DNA of 36,107 nucleotides from Rhodoferax sp. (GTDB lineage Bacteria; Pseudomonadota; Gammaproteobacteria; Burkholderiales; Burkholderiaceae_C): NCBI GenBank assembly GCA_044344025.1, contig JBIJDQ010000001.1, positions 1 to 36,107 of the forward strand, written 5' to 3'. The notes below the pieces were generated by a model. The model saw nothing but the letters and a program-made list of their open reading frames with translations, searched no databases and was not told the DNA's origin. A program made the position numbers and the translations under genes. Positions within the stretch are counted from its first letter, which is position 1, and every line of letters starts with the position of its first letter. This document shows, piece after piece, positions 383 through 5,963 of the stretch.

Positions 383-417
383 TGTTAGCGGCTGTGTAAT
401 AGAGCGCAAATTTGGCG
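383..417. repeat. IS21 right terminal inverted repeat (IRR)
   Basis: TGTTAGCGGCTGTGTAATAGAGCGCAAATTTGGCG aligns without gaps to the reverse complement of 3784-3818. Confidence 0.8.
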
Positions 418-446
418 AAGTTTTATGCTGGCGACGTCCAATAGCA

Positions 447-466
447 AAGGGGCCGATAGGCCCCTT
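447..466 (-). terminator. Hairpin downstream of the IS operon, probable intrinsic terminator
   Basis: AAGGGGCC-GATA-GGCCCCTT perfect 8-bp stem ~30 bp after the last IS ORF; only a weak U tract. Confidence 0.5.
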
Positions 467-494
467 GTTGTTATCGAATAGTGAACAACTCAAC

Positions 495-731
495 TCAAAA
501 CGGCACACCCTCATCGTCGTTGGAGCCGTCAATCTCTGACTGAGTGATCCGTGTGGCCTCCCAATATGCGTAAAGCTTGCCCTGATAACGGCTGTGAATC
601 ACATGCAGCAAATCCTGCAGCAACTCAGCCACGGCCACCACCTGCTCGGTGCTCCAGTCATCGTCAATCACCATAGGCAGGCCCGATTGCAGCCCTGAGG
701 GCAATTGCAAATGTTTCATGACGTGCTTCAT
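495..731 (-). CDS. Small acidic hypothetical protein of the IS21 element (78 aa, ends DDEGVPF)
   Basis: ATGA overlap with istB stop (728-731); lies inside the IS ends; fills the space between istB and the hairpin. Confidence 0.7.
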   Translation of the reverse strand: MKHVMKHLQLPSGLQSGLPMVIDDDWSTEQVVAVAELLQDLLHVIHSRYQGKLYAYWEATRITQSEIDGSNDDEGVPF

Positions 732-1483
732 GATTTGGCCCTTTTACGTTTTGATGTCAAATCAGCAGCACGCTCCTGCGCCTCCTTGAGGCGATAGGAC
801 TCCCCCTCTATACCAATCACCTCAGAGTGATGCACCAAACGGTCAATCAAAGACACCACGCAAGCAGCATTGGGAAACACCTCACCCCAATCGGCAAACG
901 CCTTATTGGTGGTCACAATCGTGCTCTTGGACTCATAGCGCCGGTTCACCAGCTCGAACAGCAAGTCGGCATGGCGGTTCGAATACGACAAATAACCGAT
1001 CTCATCAATCACCAACAAATCCGGATTGACGTAGTGACGCAGACGCCTGCGCAATGCCGCATCACTGTCCATGGCGGCCAACTCCCCCAGCATCTCACCC
1101 GCCGTGGTGAACCGCACCGTATAGCCCTGCACCAGAGCCTGGTGTGCCACATTTTTGGCCAACATCGACTTACCCACCCCGTTGTTGCCACGCAGCACCA
1201 CGTTGACAGACTGCGCCATGAACTCCAGCGTCATCAACGCTTCAATGGCCGCACGGTCGCACTGTTTGGGCCACGCCCAATCAAAGTCCGCCAACGCCTT
1301 AAAGCGTCCAATGCGTGCGCCACTCAAGCGTCGCTCAAGGCTGCGCTGGGCACGCGCTTGCTCCTCCCAGTCAATCAAACTGGGCAGCCAATCGGCATCG
1401 TTGAGTTCAGACCAATGTGCGAGCACGCCGTGCATGCGCAAATCGGCCGCACGTTTGCGCAGCCCCTCATTTTTTGGACTCAT
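728..1483 (-). CDS. istB: IS21 helper AAA+ ATPase IstB
   Basis: Walker A GNNGVGKS, Walker B LLVIDEIGY, TTN..F..W and DRLVHH motifs; start MSPKNE after AGGAGA RBS, overlapping the istA end. Confidence 0.95.
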   Translation of the reverse strand: MSPKNEGLRKRAADLRMHGVLAHWSELNDADWLPSLIDWEEQARAQRSLERRLSGARIGRFKALADFDWAWPKQCDRAAIEALMTLEFMAQSVNVVLRGNNGVGKSMLAKNVAHQALVQGYTVRFTTAGEMLGELAAMDSDAALRRRLRHYVNPDLLVIDEIGYLSYSNRHADLLFELVNRRYESKSTIVTTNKAFADWGEVFPNAACVVSLIDRLVHHSEVIGIEGESYRLKEAQERAADLTSKRKRAKS

Positions 1484-3020
1484 CACTGTCTCTCCTTGGG
1501 GTTTCGGGTTCAGTTTGGGATTGGGCTTGGGAGTCAGAGGCCGTGCTGCCCAATTGGTCGTAGCTGGCCAAGGGGTGGGCATGAATCACCGTGTCACGCA
1601 ACCTGACTTTTTCGCTCAACTGCACTGCCACTGGCGCCGGTTCTTGACGTGCTTCACGCTGGGCCTCCAGTGCCAGGCGAACCGCATTGGGGTGGGGAAC
1701 TTTGCGAGCCAGCGCTGTCAGCACCGCCGTCTGTACCTCGGTGGCTCCATAACGATCAACCAAACGCATCAGTGCTGAGGTGATTGAGCCCAAGTTCTCA
1801 CCGCGAGCGCCTGCCTGAGTGAGCAACTCCACGCTGGCGGGTACCGCCTGACGCAGGCGACCCATCCCGCGCTGGGCGTGCGCCTGGGCCTTGCGTTCAA
1901 CCAAATCTGTGATGTGTGACTCAGTCTCGATTTGTTGATCTTTGTCAAAGCTGCGCACATGGCTGGCCACCACCACAGAGCCATCCAGGATACGCACCGC
2001 CCTGGTGTCAGCCAGCACCGTGAGTGCTTTGCGCACCAGGGTGTGCGGGACCGAATAGTCATTGAGATCGAACCGCACATAGGGGGTCTTGCCGACCGTG
2101 ACCACCACCCGTTCTTCAACGGGATAGGGGTTTGCTGGCAAGGCCAGCAGGCGTGGCTTCTCCTGCACAAAGGCCTGTCCCACCGTCAGGGTCTTGTCTT
2201 GCGGACAAAGCCGCTCATCGGCGGGACCATTCACCCACGCATCGGCTTGGGCGTTGAGGTCATAGAGGTCGGTGAACGTGCGTGCGCAGAAGAAGTTGTC
2301 GCGGATGTAACGAATGGCACGCTCGACCCGACCTTTCTCGTTACCACGGGCCACCGCCACCGGACGGGGTTCGAAGTGGTAGTGCGCGGCAAACTCCAGC
2401 AGTGCTGGTGAGAAGCGAATCGCATCGCCCTGGCGTTCAAGGACTGCACTTTTAAGATTGTCATACAGCAGCACCCTGGGCAAACCACCCCAGGACTTGA
2501 AGGCCTCGACATGGCCACGCAGAAAGCTCTCCATGCGTGCATCCAGCGAGAAGCGCAAAAAAATGCGCCGAGACCAGGACAAGACGGCCACGAAAGCCAT
2601 CAGGGGGCGTTTGGCTTGGCCGATTTGCAGGTGGCCAAAGTGACCCCAGTCAATCTGGCCTTGTTCACCAACGAACGTGACCAAACGCAGGTACGCCTCA
2701 GGCAGAGCACGGGGTCGGTGCTGAGAGATGAGGTGGCGAAAGTGGTCAGGGCCGCCTTGGTAACCACGTACTTTGACCATGGCGTACAGGCGGCTGGCTC
2801 TGAGGTCTGGAAACTTCTTCAAAGTCTCCAGAATGAAGGGCAAGTAGGCATCGATGCGTGAGGCGCGCGCAGTGCCGATGCGGGGCAAACCTGCTTGGCG
2901 CAAGGCTCTCTCAACGGTGCCGTGGTGCACCTTCAATTGCCGGGCAATGGTGCCCACTCGCCATTGCTCGACATGGTAATAGCGCAGTATCTGGGCTCTG
3001 AGTTCAGGGGGCACGGGCAT
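1467..3020 (-). CDS. istA: IS21 DDE transposase IstA
   Basis: N-terminal HTH, GEQGQIDWG, LYDNLK and EKGRVER catalytic motifs, VRFDLNDYSVP beta-barrel; intact 517 aa. Confidence 0.95.
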   Translation of the reverse strand: MPVPPELRAQILRYYHVEQWRVGTIARQLKVHHGTVERALRQAGLPRIGTARASRIDAYLPFILETLKKFPDLRASRLYAMVKVRGYQGGPDHFRHLISQHRPRALPEAYLRLVTFVGEQGQIDWGHFGHLQIGQAKRPLMAFVAVLSWSRRIFLRFSLDARMESFLRGHVEAFKSWGGLPRVLLYDNLKSAVLERQGDAIRFSPALLEFAAHYHFEPRPVAVARGNEKGRVERAIRYIRDNFFCARTFTDLYDLNAQADAWVNGPADERLCPQDKTLTVGQAFVQEKPRLLALPANPYPVEERVVVTVGKTPYVRFDLNDYSVPHTLVRKALTVLADTRAVRILDGSVVVASHVRSFDKDQQIETESHITDLVERKAQAHAQRGMGRLRQAVPASVELLTQAGARGENLGSITSALMRLVDRYGATEVQTAVLTALARKVPHPNAVRLALEAQREARQEPAPVAVQLSEKVRLRDTVIHAHPLASYDQLGSTASDSQAQSQTEPETPRRDSDESKK

Positions 3021-3435
3021 GGTGTGGCTCTTTCTGGTGTGTCAAACGGGTAAGGCGACGGATGCGACGGCGTAGAAAGTCAATGCGCACAAACTCGACA
3101 CAGTCGCAGCCACAGAAATGGCACCTCCAGGGCTGCTGTGGCGCATCAACTTTGATTGCCATCACCTCGGGGGGCAGTAGAGCAGGCAGGCTTAAGGGTG
3201 GGGAACCCTGATGCGTCACTTTCGCGCGTTTTGCCAGCCAGCGGCGCTGTCTTTGGGCGTGGGCATGACGTCCACGCCTGCTGGCTTGGTAGCGTTTTCC
3301 TGCTGCGCGCACGCAGCAGGAACGTTGCTTGGGAGCGCAGTCTTCGCAGTAGCGGTTGCCATGATCACAATGGCTGCATATCAGCACCGGGGTGTGGCAA
3401 CAAGCGCACAGGTAACGCCTGGCAGGTGGCTCCAT
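3004..3435 (-). CDS. Cys-rich putative zinc-binding basic protein of the IS21 element (143 aa)
   Basis: ATG at 3435 (MEPPARRYLC); four CxxC pairs (CACC, CSHC, CEDC, CHFC) and an Arg-rich helix; overlaps istA start by 17 nt. Confidence 0.75.
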   Translation of the reverse strand: MEPPARRYLCACCHTPVLICSHCDHGNRYCEDCAPKQRSCCVRAAGKRYQASRRGRHAHAQRQRRWLAKRAKVTHQGSPPLSLPALLPPEVMAIKVDAPQQPWRCHFCGCDCVEFVRIDFLRRRIRRLTRLTHQKEPHHARAP

Positions 3436-3464
3436 CGGTAAATGGTGGCCGACGGGGGTTGGGC

Positions 3465-3494
3465 TAGACAGGGCCTGGTGTTTCGTGAAATACT
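3465..3494 (+). promoter_or_regulatory. Candidate outward-facing sigma70 promoter inside the IS21 left end
   Basis: TAGACA (3465-3470), 18-bp spacer ending in TGn, then AATACT (3489-3494). Confidence 0.4.
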
Positions 3495-3694
3495 GACACC
3501 GGCAACGTCGCCCTCCCGGGCTCGGGGCACGACATCGGTTGGAACTTGCGACGTTATTGGCCGGTGTCGTGCCTGCTTCATGAGCTTTTACGGCAAGGTC
3601 GGTTTTTACTCTCTCTTGGGCTGCTTGGCTACTGGATTCGATGCCAGTCAGGTGCGCCCACACATCAATTCACAACACCCTAATCACCAGCGCC

Positions 3695-3755
3695 GCGCGC
3701 CATGGGGGTGTTTGCACTCGCCCTTCGGGCTCCTTCCAACACCCCCATGGCGCGC
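3695..3755. repeat. Perfect 18-bp inverted repeat with inner GCCC-TTC-GGGC hairpin, near the IS21 left end
   Basis: GCGCGCCATGGGGGTGTT (3695-3712) / AACACCCCCATGGCGCGC (3738-3755). Confidence 0.9.
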
Positions 3756-3783
3756 AAATGCGAATTCCGTCAAATACCTTGGC

Positions 3784-3818
3784 CGCCAAATTTCCGCCTA
3801 TGTTGGTAGCCATTCACA
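3784..3818. repeat. IS21 left terminal inverted repeat (IRL)
   Basis: Reverse complement TGTGAATGGCTACCAACATAGGCGGAAATTTGGCG; IS630 coding sequence begins right after it. Confidence 0.8.
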
Positions 3819-4116
3819 ACAGGGCGAGTACCCCGGTATCGAGCAGCGGGCCAAGCGCGAGGGTGCAGAAATTCACTGGGGCGATGAAACAGCCCTGACC
3901 AACACCGATGTGCGAGGAAGAAGCTACGCGCCTGCAGGCAAAACACCTGTGGCACTGACCGTAGGCGGCACACGCCAAAAAATTTTCATGATCGCCACTG
4001 TCACCAACCAGGGCAAGACCCGCTAGATGATCATTGAGGAATCATTTCATGCCGACAAATTCTGTGAATTTCGGCAAGCGCTGATCAAGGACACAGGAAA
4101 AAAGGTGTTCCTGATC
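3819..4116 (+). pseudogene. IS630-family transposase internal fragment
   Basis: GEYPGIEQRAKREGAEIHWGDET...GRSYAPAGKTP...VTNQGKTR*MII...KKVFLI; in-frame TAG at 4024-4026; truncated at both ends. Confidence 0.85.
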
Positions 4117-4470
4117 ATGCTGACCGATATTGAGAGCGTATTTCGCAGTTTGAAGGGGGAACTGGGGTTGCGCCCGGTGTTTCACCAAACGCTAAACCGC
4201 GCCGATGGGCATTTGTTCATCACGGTGTTGGCGTATTAGTGCGTGCAGGTGGTTCGCAAGACGCTCAAGGCGGTGGCAATCCATGACAGTTGGAGCATCT
4301 TGAGGACCACCATGTCTGTGCAGCAGCGTGTGACCGCGAGCATGCAGCGCAGCGATGGGCGCACCATTCATATGCGCATGAGCACCAAGGCAGAGCCTGC
4401 GTTGATGCGCATTTACCCGGCACTGGGCATTAGTGCAGCGCCCGGGGGCACCAAAAAACTTGTCTTTTGA
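4117..4470 (+). pseudogene. IS1634-family transposase C-terminal fragment
   Basis: MLTDIESVFRSLKGELGLRPVFHQ...ADGHLFITVLAY*...DGRTIHMR...IYPALGI; in-frame TAG at 4237-4239; element end probably near 4563 (TGTTAAAGACCGG). Confidence 0.85.
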
Positions 4471-4651: not shown

Positions 4652-5728
4652 TCAGGCGGTTTCCGCCTGGCTTTTGCTCCGACGTTTGGCTGCAAAGAAC
4701 ACAGCAACCAGACCAGCCAACATCAGGGCATAGGTTTCTGGCTCTGGCACAGCGGCAATGTTGCCCCTGAAAGCCACATCATTGATCTGGGCTGCGCCTG
4801 ACCAGTTAGCCACAATTACTTGGCCGTTGATCGTGCCGCCGCTGGTGCTGAAACTAGCCAGAGGGGCCAAAAACGACGCATTGAGGTAGGCACCGAAGGT
4901 GATTTGTTTGGCTTCCGGTAAGTTAAACAACACGCGACCTGAGGCAAAGTTACCGTAACTGTGTGCACCGAAGTCAACACTTTGGCCATGCACGTTGATC
5001 ACCACCGTGGTGTTGGTAGTTAAGCCTTCCAGGTTCAGATTGCCCGCCAAATCGGCACTGCTGAGGTCAAACACGGCGAGGCTTGCACCGTTGGCATTCA
5101 GAGAGAGGGTACCCCATGAATTGAGCACACTGCCGGTATTGGCCAATTCGTCAAAGGTTTGAGACAAATCAGTTGTGCGGGCGCGCTCGGCAGCAAAATC
5201 CATACCCAACACCATGCTGCCAGGGGCGGCTTTGATCGCTGTGCCTTCTTGATAATTGCTCAGCCCTGTTGCCTTACCACCGTAAGTAATGGAATTGGCA
5301 ACCAGCCACTGGTTACCCGCATTCAAATCACCTATCACCTTCAGGTTTCCTCCGAAACTACCCGTGCTGCTACTCAACAGGTTGCCACCCACAATGGTGT
5401 CGCCCAAGATGTTGCCGCTGATAAAGTTGAGATTGCCGCCGACAGTCAGACCCGTGCCGCTGTAGAGCGCGTTGTAACCGTTTTTGGTGTTGATTGAGTA
5501 ACCTGAAATGTTGGCGTTGCCACCAATGGCCACGCGGCCCTCCACGTCTGAGCTTGGAACCGAGAAATTGTCGAAGGCCAAAAGGTTAAGGCCAGCCGAC
5601 AAGCCCAAGGGGTTGCTTGGGTCGTAAGCCATGGCGGCGGGGGAGGAAAACAGCGCCAAAAGCACCAAGGCGGTAGCGAAGGTGTGCTGACGTTTCTTTT
5701 GGCTTTTGGCGGTGTCAACGGTGTTCAT
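4652..5728 (-). CDS. PEP-CTERM surface protein with choice-of-anchor A (collagen-binding-like) domain
   Basis: Signal peptide (..FATALVLLALFSSPAAMA), SDVEGRVAIGGN and VLFNLPEA motifs, C-terminal VPEPETYALMLAGL-TM-KRR; start chosen at MNTVDT. Confidence 0.9.
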   Translation of the reverse strand: MNTVDTAKSQKKRQHTFATALVLLALFSSPAAMAYDPSNPLGLSAGLNLLAFDNFSVPSSDVEGRVAIGGNANISGYSINTKNGYNALYSGTGLTVGGNLNFISGNILGDTIVGGNLLSSSTGSFGGNLKVIGDLNAGNQWLVANSITYGGKATGLSNYQEGTAIKAAPGSMVLGMDFAAERARTTDLSQTFDELANTGSVLNSWGTLSLNANGASLAVFDLSSADLAGNLNLEGLTTNTTVVINVHGQSVDFGAHSYGNFASGRVLFNLPEAKQITFGAYLNASFLAPLASFSTSGGTINGQVIVANWSGAAQINDVAFRGNIAAVPEPETYALMLAGLVAVFFAAKRRSKSQAETA

Positions 5729-5963
5729 TGGGGGTGTGCGCCGGAACGAACCGGCACTTTTATTCGTACCAATATTGTCAATTGGTAGGCGAAAAAATAG
5801 GGCACCAGCGGGCACCAGTGTTCTTTGGTGTCCGTGACAAATTCACGCTTTTTTCGGATAGATCAGGGGCCTGTGCCAGACGGGGTTACCGCCATAAGTC
5901 TGGCTGCTGTCAGGTCACGGTATGCCGTTACGTGATTGCTGGGATTGTCCAATTTTTGGTCTG

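What the first reader, a model, noticed from the sequence alone, without database searches (positions are those of the whole stretch)
383..3818. Four-gene IS21 element: istA-istB flanked by two coupled accessory genes and a long structured left end
Seen: within one pair of terminal IRs lie a Zn-finger ORF, istA, istB and a 78-aa ORF. Each overlaps the next (17, 17 and 4 nt), preceded by ~380 bp of non-coding, hairpin-rich DNA. Known: canonical IS21 elements encode only IstA and IstB and are usually shorter, while Mu/Tn7-type systems add target-selector and host-factor adaptors to a DDE plus AAA+ core. Inference: this may be an IS21 subgroup with dedicated accessory transposition factors rather than passenger genes.
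Basis: partly seen in the sequence, partly recalled or inferred. Interest (0 to 1): 0.8.

Follow-up and report, generated by a model that had tools for sequence, protein, structure and literature searches.

The report
Four-gene IS21 with antisense switch
This jumping gene of the IS21 type carries two extra, conserved genes beside its transposase and helper ATPase, plus a predicted antisense-RNA switch in its left end; one extra protein ends in a tail like that of the cell's single-strand DNA-binding protein and likely recruits host DNA-repair proteins, which would add built-in helpers to a machine described as needing only two genes.

Summary
In detail: ends at 383 and 3818, four genes overlapping by 17, 17 and 4 nt, and a 383-nt non-coding left end. 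The extra genes belong to the element. In IstA-selected relatives orfZ (8 Cys, basic helix) is present in 108 of 110 assessable loci and orfS in 88 of 95. Both are under purifying selection (dN/dS 0.36, 0.29). Relatives make 5–8-bp target duplications at 27 unrelated sites, so there is no sign of a Tn7-like target selector. New here: the left end holds two conserved convergent σ70-type promoters and a hairpin selected to fold on the antisense strand, a predicted ~80-nt antisense RNA, and a hairpin burying orfZ's start codon. OrfS is a predicted tetramer ending in an SSB-like acidic-Phe tail (73 of 86), and it also follows the ATPase of an unrelated DDE/ExeA-type transposon. Functions are untested. 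The scan noted this gene order (e1-9780663) and an SSB-like tail (e1-8060503) before on other DNA. No paper found; ISfinder could not be searched.

The parts
3783..3818 (-). Left terminal inverted repeat (TGT...)
   Evidence: 22 of 36 nt match the right end; same consensus in 63 relatives with well-scored ends
3695..3755 (.). Long hairpin (29-nt arms), present only in close relatives; possibly blocks read-through from outside (inferred)
3603..3632 (-). Predicted inward promoter pIN: -35 (3632-3627), 18-nt spacer, -10 TAAAAA (3608-3603); predicted start near 3596
   Evidence: -10 T 34/36, A 34/36; TGAC core of -35 conserved; not found by the generic scan
3501..3583 (+). Predicted antisense RNA of about 80 nt; main hairpin 3526-3573 followed by a pyrimidine-rich tail
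   Evidence: 98.4% of cells paired and 10 of 12 pairs with compensatory change on this strand; 56 A-C versus 1 G-U on the sense strand
3465..3494 (+). Predicted outward promoter pOUT: -35 TAGACA, 18-nt spacer, -10 AATACT
   Evidence: the only promoter-like site in the generic scan (0.9 expected by chance, so not evidence alone); -10 A, A and T invariant in 36 of 36, spacer 17-18 in 36 of 36
3434..3453 (-). Short hairpin that buries the orfZ start codon
   Evidence: pairing >0.6 around the start in 53 of 61 elements versus 42% of 328 internal ATGs; SD-like motif in 11 of 61
3004..3435 (-). orfZ, 143 aa: six N-terminal and two C-terminal Cys with an Arg/Lys-rich helix between; no known family
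   Evidence: 8 Cys conserved in 79-82 of 82; dN/dS 0.36; model; no hits
1467..3020 (-). istA, IS21 DDE transposase, 517 aa
   Evidence: NF033546 222 bits, cut-off 160; D124, D187, E233 in 82 of 82
728..1483 (-). istB, AAA+ helper ATPase, 251 aa
   Evidence: NF038214 218.7 bits, cut-off 200; PF01695
495..731 (-). orfS, 78 aa: one long helix and an acidic tail ending DDEGVPF; predicted homotetramer
   Evidence: dN/dS 0.29
447..466 (.). GC-rich hairpin after orfS, candidate terminator
   Evidence: listed for the + strand; similar hairpins in close relatives
383..418 (+). Right terminal inverted repeat

Best explanation
It is an IS21-type insertion sequence with four overlapping genes, in which the two extra genes are conserved parts of the element: the zinc-finger gene likely forms a control module with a predicted antisense RNA in the left end, and the small last gene likely makes a tetramer whose SSB-like tails would recruit host DNA-repair or replication-restart proteins. 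Shown: gene order, co-inheritance, purifying selection, recent multi-copy spread with 5-8-bp duplications, no fixed target. Inferred from conservation: an inward promoter makes an mRNA with a ~160-nt leader whose last hairpin buries the orfZ start; an outward promoter makes an ~80-nt antisense RNA complementary to most of the first ~95 nt of that leader, which would damp expression as copy number rises; overlapping stops and starts would pass that control to istA, istB and orfS. Weakly inferred: a GCCR motif at the mRNA 5' end competes for the hairpin's 5' arm and would open the start codon; OrfZ binds nucleic acid in the left end. Inferred: OrfS acts at or after strand transfer by docking SSB-interacting proteins; it is helpful, not essential.
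For: orfZ directly upstream of istA in 108 of 110 assessable IstA-selected loci, orfS after istB in 88 of 95 (114 loci examined). The 25 four-gene rows in the tree fall, with two orfS-less rows, in one clade (SH-aLRT 100, quick tree). dN/dS Z 0.36, S 0.29, IstA 0.13, IstB 0.11 over 26 disjoint pairs, with similar synonymous divergence; tree distances correlate with IstA (rho 0.72, 0.66; shuffled maxima 0.16, 0.23). Duplications in 6 of 7 intact copies of G178 and 8 of 8 intact copies examined in G271. Antisense hairpin and promoters; the model built from 36 leaders scores 32 of the 56 other loci searched on the expected strand, among them a Z-ParB-IstA element of another IstA lineage (45.9 bits), but not the canonical IS21 or ExeA-type loci. 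OrfS ends in F in 73 of 86 complete copies (68 with at least 2 acidic residues in the last 10), against 58 and 12 of 1,404 long ORFs of the own genome; the own SSB ends DDDIPF. Homotetramer score 0.82, best control 0.01; the mark was reached by 20 of 30 solved pairs and 1 of 23 single chains; contacts agree 93%, pLDDT at least 75. OrfS also follows an ExeA-type ATPase in 6 loci of 4 genomes.
Against: No transcript, strand or start was observed: only contigs were available. The antisense RNA would end 66 nt short of the start codon, so simple ribosome-site blocking as in IS10 does not apply; the long-range switch rests on 4 base pairs, one with 6 compensatory cells that may be one event. The tail after the hairpin averages only 4.6 T in 10 nt, a weak terminator. 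OrfS is cleanly lost in L126 and L134, and the L134 contig runs exactly from end to end of the element, as multi-copy repeats do. The window's own tail (EGVPF) and many others (PPF, PSF) depart from DDDIPF; 13 of 86 lack the final F. No OrfS partner and no OrfZ ligand was tested. The 80 metagenome loci are the best 80 of 587, include near-duplicates, and the profiles were built partly from these loci.
Confidence: 0.5

Rival explanations
1. OrfZ is a TniQ-like target selector that steers IstB to particular DNA sites or structures.
For: Small zinc-binding protein with a basic helix beside a DDE/AAA+ pair; G at position 4 in 15 of 17 five-bp duplications; PMC10293859 notes that TniQ contains a zinc finger.
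Against: 27 sites share no flanking sequence; 13 head-on versus 8 co-directional insertions (terminus assumed opposite dnaA); no TniQ-family hit; orfZ travels with the leader cassette onto a different IstA lineage, which fits a regulatory module better.
Confidence: 0.15
2. OrfS is a decoy rather than an adaptor: it soaks up SSB partners (exonucleases, helicases) to protect transposition intermediates or slow the host's forks; in the strong form the antisense RNA and one small protein form an addiction module.
For: OrfS has the tail but no recognisable DNA-binding fold; antisense control of a buried start codon is also the design of type I toxin-antitoxin loci (recalled).
Against: orfS sits fourth in the operon, coupled to the ATPase in two unrelated transposon types (68 of 82 four-gene elements have the 4-nt overlap), not next to the antisense RNA; clean losses exist.
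Confidence: 0.17
3. OrfZ matters mainly as a translated leader that couples the RNA switch to istA; the protein has little role.
For: Start codon buried, SD-like motif in only 11 of 61; orfZ overlaps istA in 66 of 82; highest dN/dS of the four genes.
Against: Eight Cys and the basic helix are kept in 79-82 of 82 elements; N-terminal core dN/dS 0.27; a ParB-like gene separates orfZ from istA in two loci.
Confidence: 0.1
4. Both genes are passengers captured once and carried along without serving the element.
For: No known function; canonical IS21 transposes in vitro with IstA and IstB alone (PMC10122671, passages); orfS can be lost.
Against: Fixed positions across Alpha-, Beta- and Gammaproteobacteria; reuse of orfS beside another ATPase type and of orfZ beside another IstA lineage; every orfZ or orfS hit whose neighbourhood could be read lay in or beside transposon genes, apart from a few weak hits or short contigs (L082, L190, L187, L194).
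Confidence: 0.08

Closest known systems
Prototype IS21-family elements (IS21, IS5376; PMC10122671 and PMC12486865, passages read)
   Same: IstA DDE transposase, IstB AAA+ ATPase, TG...CA ends, about 5-bp duplications, no strong target specificity.
   Different: Two extra conserved genes, about 3.3-3.6 kb, a 300-400-nt left end with a predicted antisense cassette; IstA about 30-35% identical to plasmid IS21 outside the clade.
IS10 RNA-IN/RNA-OUT and IS200 art200 antisense control (PMC4513863, passages read)
   Same: Cis-encoded structured antisense RNA opposite the transposase leader; as in IS200, an mRNA hairpin that hides the translation start.
   Different: No Rfam match; the predicted RNA stops 66 nt before the start codon instead of covering it; it would control a four-gene operon headed by an accessory gene; not shown to be expressed.
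Bacterial SSB C-terminal tail (DDDIPF; PMC5872125, passages read)
   Same: Acidic residues and terminal Phe on a flexible tail; predicted tetramer showing four tails.
   Different: No OB fold; a helical bundle instead; tail more variable; partner binding untested.
Tn7-like transposons with TniQ/TnsD/TnsE (PMC10293859, passages read; it states that IS21 has not been reported with a target selector)
   Same: DDE plus AAA+ core with an added zinc-binding protein.
   Different: No TniQ similarity detected, no attachment site, no orientation bias.
Phage Mu Com (recalled, from no call)
   Same: Small zinc protein beside a leader whose hairpin hides a start codon.
   Different: No hit to a Com family in Pfam or PHROGs; analogy only.

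Membership tests
IS21 family (transposase, ATPase, ends) | IstA-type DDE transposase | tested here: met
   NF033546 above cut-off; DDE in 82 of 82
IS21 family (transposase, ATPase, ends) | IstB AAA+ helper directly downstream | tested here: met
   NF038214 above cut-off; Walker motifs located
IS21 family (transposase, ATPase, ends) | Terminal inverted repeats ending in CA | tested here: met
IS21 family (transposase, ATPase, ends) | Short target-site duplication | tested here: met
   5 bp (17), 6 bp (8), 8 bp (2) in relatives; absent in the window's own copy
IS21 family (transposase, ATPase, ends) | Repeated transposase sites (L1/L2, R1/R2) in each end | not tested
   Ends were aligned but not searched for the second repeat
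Prototype two-gene IS21 | Only istA and istB between the ends | tested here: not met
   four genes; hence filed as a variant
Tn7-like elements with target selector | TniQ/TnsD-family protein | tested here: inconclusive
   no Pfam, NCBIfam or fold match for OrfZ; absence from these lists does not exclude it
Tn7-like elements with target selector | Fixed attachment site or oriented insertion | tested here: not met
   27 unrelated sites; 13 versus 8 orientation
IS10-type antisense control | Convergent promoters and a structured antisense RNA | tested here: met
   by conservation only
IS10-type antisense control | Antisense RNA covers the ribosome-binding site | tested here: not met
   predicted 5' end near 3501, start codon at 3435
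IS10-type antisense control | RNA is made and represses | not testable with these tools
   only unstranded contigs
SSB proteins | OB-fold ssDNA-binding domain | tested here: not met
   OrfS model is a single helix; no Pfam hit
SSB proteins | Acidic C-terminal tail ending in Phe | tested here: met
   73 of 86; 123 of 150 (profile-selected)
SSB proteins | Tail binds SSB-interacting proteins | not testable with these tools

The most novel reading that the evidence does not exclude
DDE/AAA+ transposons of at least two unrelated lineages carry a portable, DNA-binding-free SSB mimic, a four-helix bundle with four DDIPF-type tails, that brings host repair and restart proteins to the transpososome; and a portable antisense-RNA plus zinc-finger module sets copy-number control in IS21 elements. 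This would be a new class of transposition accessory factor and, by my searches, the first antisense control described in IS21.
Probability: 0.35. Interest if true: 0.85.

Novelty: new variant of a known kind. Interest (0 to 1): 0.66.

Why it matters
IS21 is the minimal structural model for transposases that use an AAA+ ATPase (Mu, Tn7, CAST) and is described as a two-gene system. A large, active clade with two selected extra genes shows that the natural machine can have more parts. How host repair is brought to the post-integration gaps, and how these elements limit copy number, become directly testable with a 78-aa protein, one terminal residue and one promoter mutation. An SSB-tail scaffold that aids resolution would also be of use for transposon-based integration tools.

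Tried and rejected
OrfZ and OrfS: no hit in Pfam; none in NCBIfam except E 0.074 for OrfS; none in PHROGs; ESM Atlas gave only unnamed clusters; Foldseek no match at E 0.001 and VIA best Z 3.0 for OrfZ, best Z 3.4 for OrfS; no PDB sequence match for OrfS. One ribosomal uS14 sequence matched the OrfZ profile at E 1.1e-5 over the basic stretch and last CxxC; no other uS14 did, so I treat it as compositional. Rfam: no match to E 1. Expression: relatives' contigs in four RNA runs cover the element but give no strand, start or level. Orientation bias relative to replication: none (G178 6 vs 2, G271 contig C2 7 vs 6). Overlapping gene inside orfZ: unlikely, synonymous divergence equals that of istA. 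The 3695-3755 hairpin as the conserved element: rejected. A viral-contig scan with the OrfS alignment could not run. A leader z-score survey timed out and was dropped. The careful IstA tree did not finish; the quick tree was used, L182 was left out, two partial rows have very long branches. Literature: ten searches showed no description of this element type in their listings; ISfinder, TnCentral and subscription reviews were not searchable, and no supplements were read.
Full report
Observation. The element spans 383-3818 on the minus strand, between ends that begin TGT and share 22 of 36 nt. Four frames follow each other: orfZ 3435-3004, istA 3020-1467, istB 1483-728, orfS 731-495, overlapping by 17, 17 and 4 nt, after 383 non-coding nt. 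IstA and IstB pass the NCBIfam IS21 cut-offs. This copy has no target duplication, touches an IS630 remnant and is the only near-identical copy in a 68%-complete assembly; a second four-gene relative (62% IstA identity) lies on C276.

Are the extra genes part of the element? I collected 114 loci by IstA alone: 29 from GTDB genomes, the best 80 of 587 confirmed metagenome stretches, and 5 viral contigs. OrfZ lay upstream of istA in 108; 4 were too short to tell; 2 lacked it (a degenerate fragment, L025, and a 29%-identical outgroup, L027). OrfS lay after istB in 88; 19 were too short; 7 lacked it. Of those 7, L022 has a divergent S-like frame ending PPF, L112 is broken by another gene, L021, L175 and L027 lie outside the core clade, and L126 and L134 are true losses within it. 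The set contains near-duplicates and the profiles were partly built from it. Among 82 complete four-gene elements, 26 disjoint pairs give dN/dS 0.36 (orfZ), 0.29 (orfS), 0.13 (istA), 0.11 (istB), with similar synonymous divergence. Gene-tree distances agree (rho 0.66-0.83; shuffled maxima at most 0.24). Named hosts include Aromatoleum, Alicycliphilus, Paraburkholderia, Methylotuvimicrobium and Mesorhizobium, where orfS is annotated 'hypothetical' and orfZ is missed or mis-called. OrfS has 1,212 relatives at the 50% cluster level.

Activity and targets. G178 holds 7 intact copies at 99.97-100% identity, 6 with duplications, plus one interrupted copy; G271 holds about 19 copies, and all 8 intact ones examined have duplications. 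The 27 sites with duplications of 5 bp or more (17 of 5, 8 of 6, 2 of 8 bp) share no flanking sequence; G stands at position 4 in 15 of the 17 five-mers. Many short metagenome contigs show no duplication (25 of 49 with both flanks), as expected when repeats collapse, though that cause was not tested. Orientation to the fork is 13 head-on versus 8 co-directional, taking the terminus opposite dnaA. There is thus no sign of a site-specific or fork-oriented selector.

The left end. The 3695-3755 hairpin is lineage-specific; the ~200 nt before orfZ are conserved. In 36 aligned leaders, chosen from 45 non-redundant ones as those that visibly carried the motifs, there is an inward -35/-10 pair (window 3632-3603) and an outward pair (3465-3494) whose -10 has A, A and T invariant in 36 of 36 and a spacer of 17-18 in 36 of 36. 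Between them a 13-bp hairpin shows 56 A-C and 1 G-U cells on the sense strand; on the antisense strand 98.4% of cells pair, 10 of 12 pairs show compensatory change, and slid controls pair at most 49%. The antisense fold is the more stable in 35 of 36. A model of this region scored 32 of the 56 other loci searched on the expected strand, including clade members not in the alignment and a Z-ParB-IstA element on C260, but not canonical IS21 loci, the ExeA-type loci, L181, L021, L022, L023 or several others. A second hairpin buries the orfZ start in 53 of 61 elements against 42% of 328 control ATGs. A GCCR motif at the predicted mRNA 5' end is complementary to that hairpin's 5' arm (95.8% of cells over 4 pairs); four pairs are weak evidence. 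Rfam has no match. No stranded data were available, so both RNAs are predictions.

OrfS. The model is one helix (28-68) with a loose acidic tail. Four copies are predicted to assemble (0.82, best control 0.01; the mark was reached by 20 of 30 solved pairs and 1 of 23 single chains; the job was unlike the calibration). The tail ends in F in 73 of 86 complete copies from IstA-selected loci, PF in 52, against 58 and 4 of 1,404 long own-genome ORFs; the own SSB ends DDDIPF. PMC5872125 (passages) describes that motif as the docking site for more than 14 replication and repair proteins, through the acidic residues and terminal Phe. OrfS homologues also follow an ExeA-type AAA gene in L212, L213, L193, L198, L201 and L188 (four genomes); in L212 and L213 the whole element is visible, with an IS481-like DDE gene and a further upstream frame. 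Against an essential role: L134 lacks orfS and its contig runs exactly end to end, as multi-copy elements do.

OrfZ. Eight Cys are kept in 79-82 of 82 elements, around a helix with 14 Arg/Lys and no acidic residue. No family or fold was found. It also precedes a ParB-like gene plus IstA (L031, L217), and a weakly similar frame heads another IS21 type (L181; hhalign 74.5%, E 2.7e-5). That it moves with the antisense cassette onto another IstA lineage favours a regulatory role; its ligand is unknown.

Comparison and novelty. PMC10122671 and PMC12486865 (passages) define IS21 as istA plus istB; PMC10293859 (passages) states that IS21 has no reported target selector; PMC4513863 (passages) describes antisense control and start-hiding hairpins in IS10 and IS200; PMC3281130 (passages) reports adjacent deletions by an IS21 member, one possible reason for the missing duplication here. 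Ten searches (listings and abstract starts only, apart from the papers named) showed no account of this type; ISfinder and TnCentral could not be searched. Clade IstA proteins on plasmids carry only the generic IS21 name, while some outgroup ones carry allele names, a weak sign that the clade is unnamed. Earlier scan notes report the same gene order and an SSB-like tail on other DNA; none of those listed describes the antisense cassette in IS21.

Verdict. A real, active, widespread four-gene variant of IS21. That both genes serve the element: about 0.85. That the left end makes a regulatory antisense RNA: about 0.8. That OrfS works through SSB-like docking: about 0.55. The combined mechanism: 0.5. 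Interest 0.66.

Noticed in passing
L212 (G745:C62:1-3518), L213 (G071:C102), L193, L198, L201, L188: A second transposon type with an upstream frame (Cys-rich in L212), an IS481-like DDE gene, an ExeA-type AAA gene and orfS; no NCBIfam family above cut-off fits its transposase.
   Followed up: partly
L031 (G000:C260), L217 (G249:C81): IS21-type elements with orfZ, a ParB-like gene and IstA; L031 carries the same promoter/antisense cassette.
   Followed up: partly
L181:678-1548: IS21 on a Caballeronia plasmid with two upstream frames: a Z-like Cys/basic protein and a 132-aa frame with a faint replication-initiator hit.
   Followed up: partly
L175:2206-2637: A different small frame with no family hit replaces orfS after istB, just inside the right end.
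   Followed up: no
L015:3225-6630: A four-gene element inserted into a CRISPR-like repeat array directly after a repeat, with a 5-bp duplication.
   Followed up: no
L073, L074 (G271): Two copies are interrupted at the same point of istA by another insert with repeated ends.
   Followed up: no
window 3820-4470: Degraded IS630 fragment followed by another transposase remnant that resembles IS1634 (name recalled; no Pfam hit).
   Followed up: partly
window 4652-5815: Choice-of-anchor A, PEP-CTERM protein next to the IS cluster; the rest of the window is housekeeping (murJ, pnp, tpi, nuo operon, NAD-GDH).
   Followed up: no
P0200, P0201, P0205, P0213: OrfS relatives of 122-135 aa with two tandem copies of the helix and a single acidic-Phe tail.
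   Followed up: no
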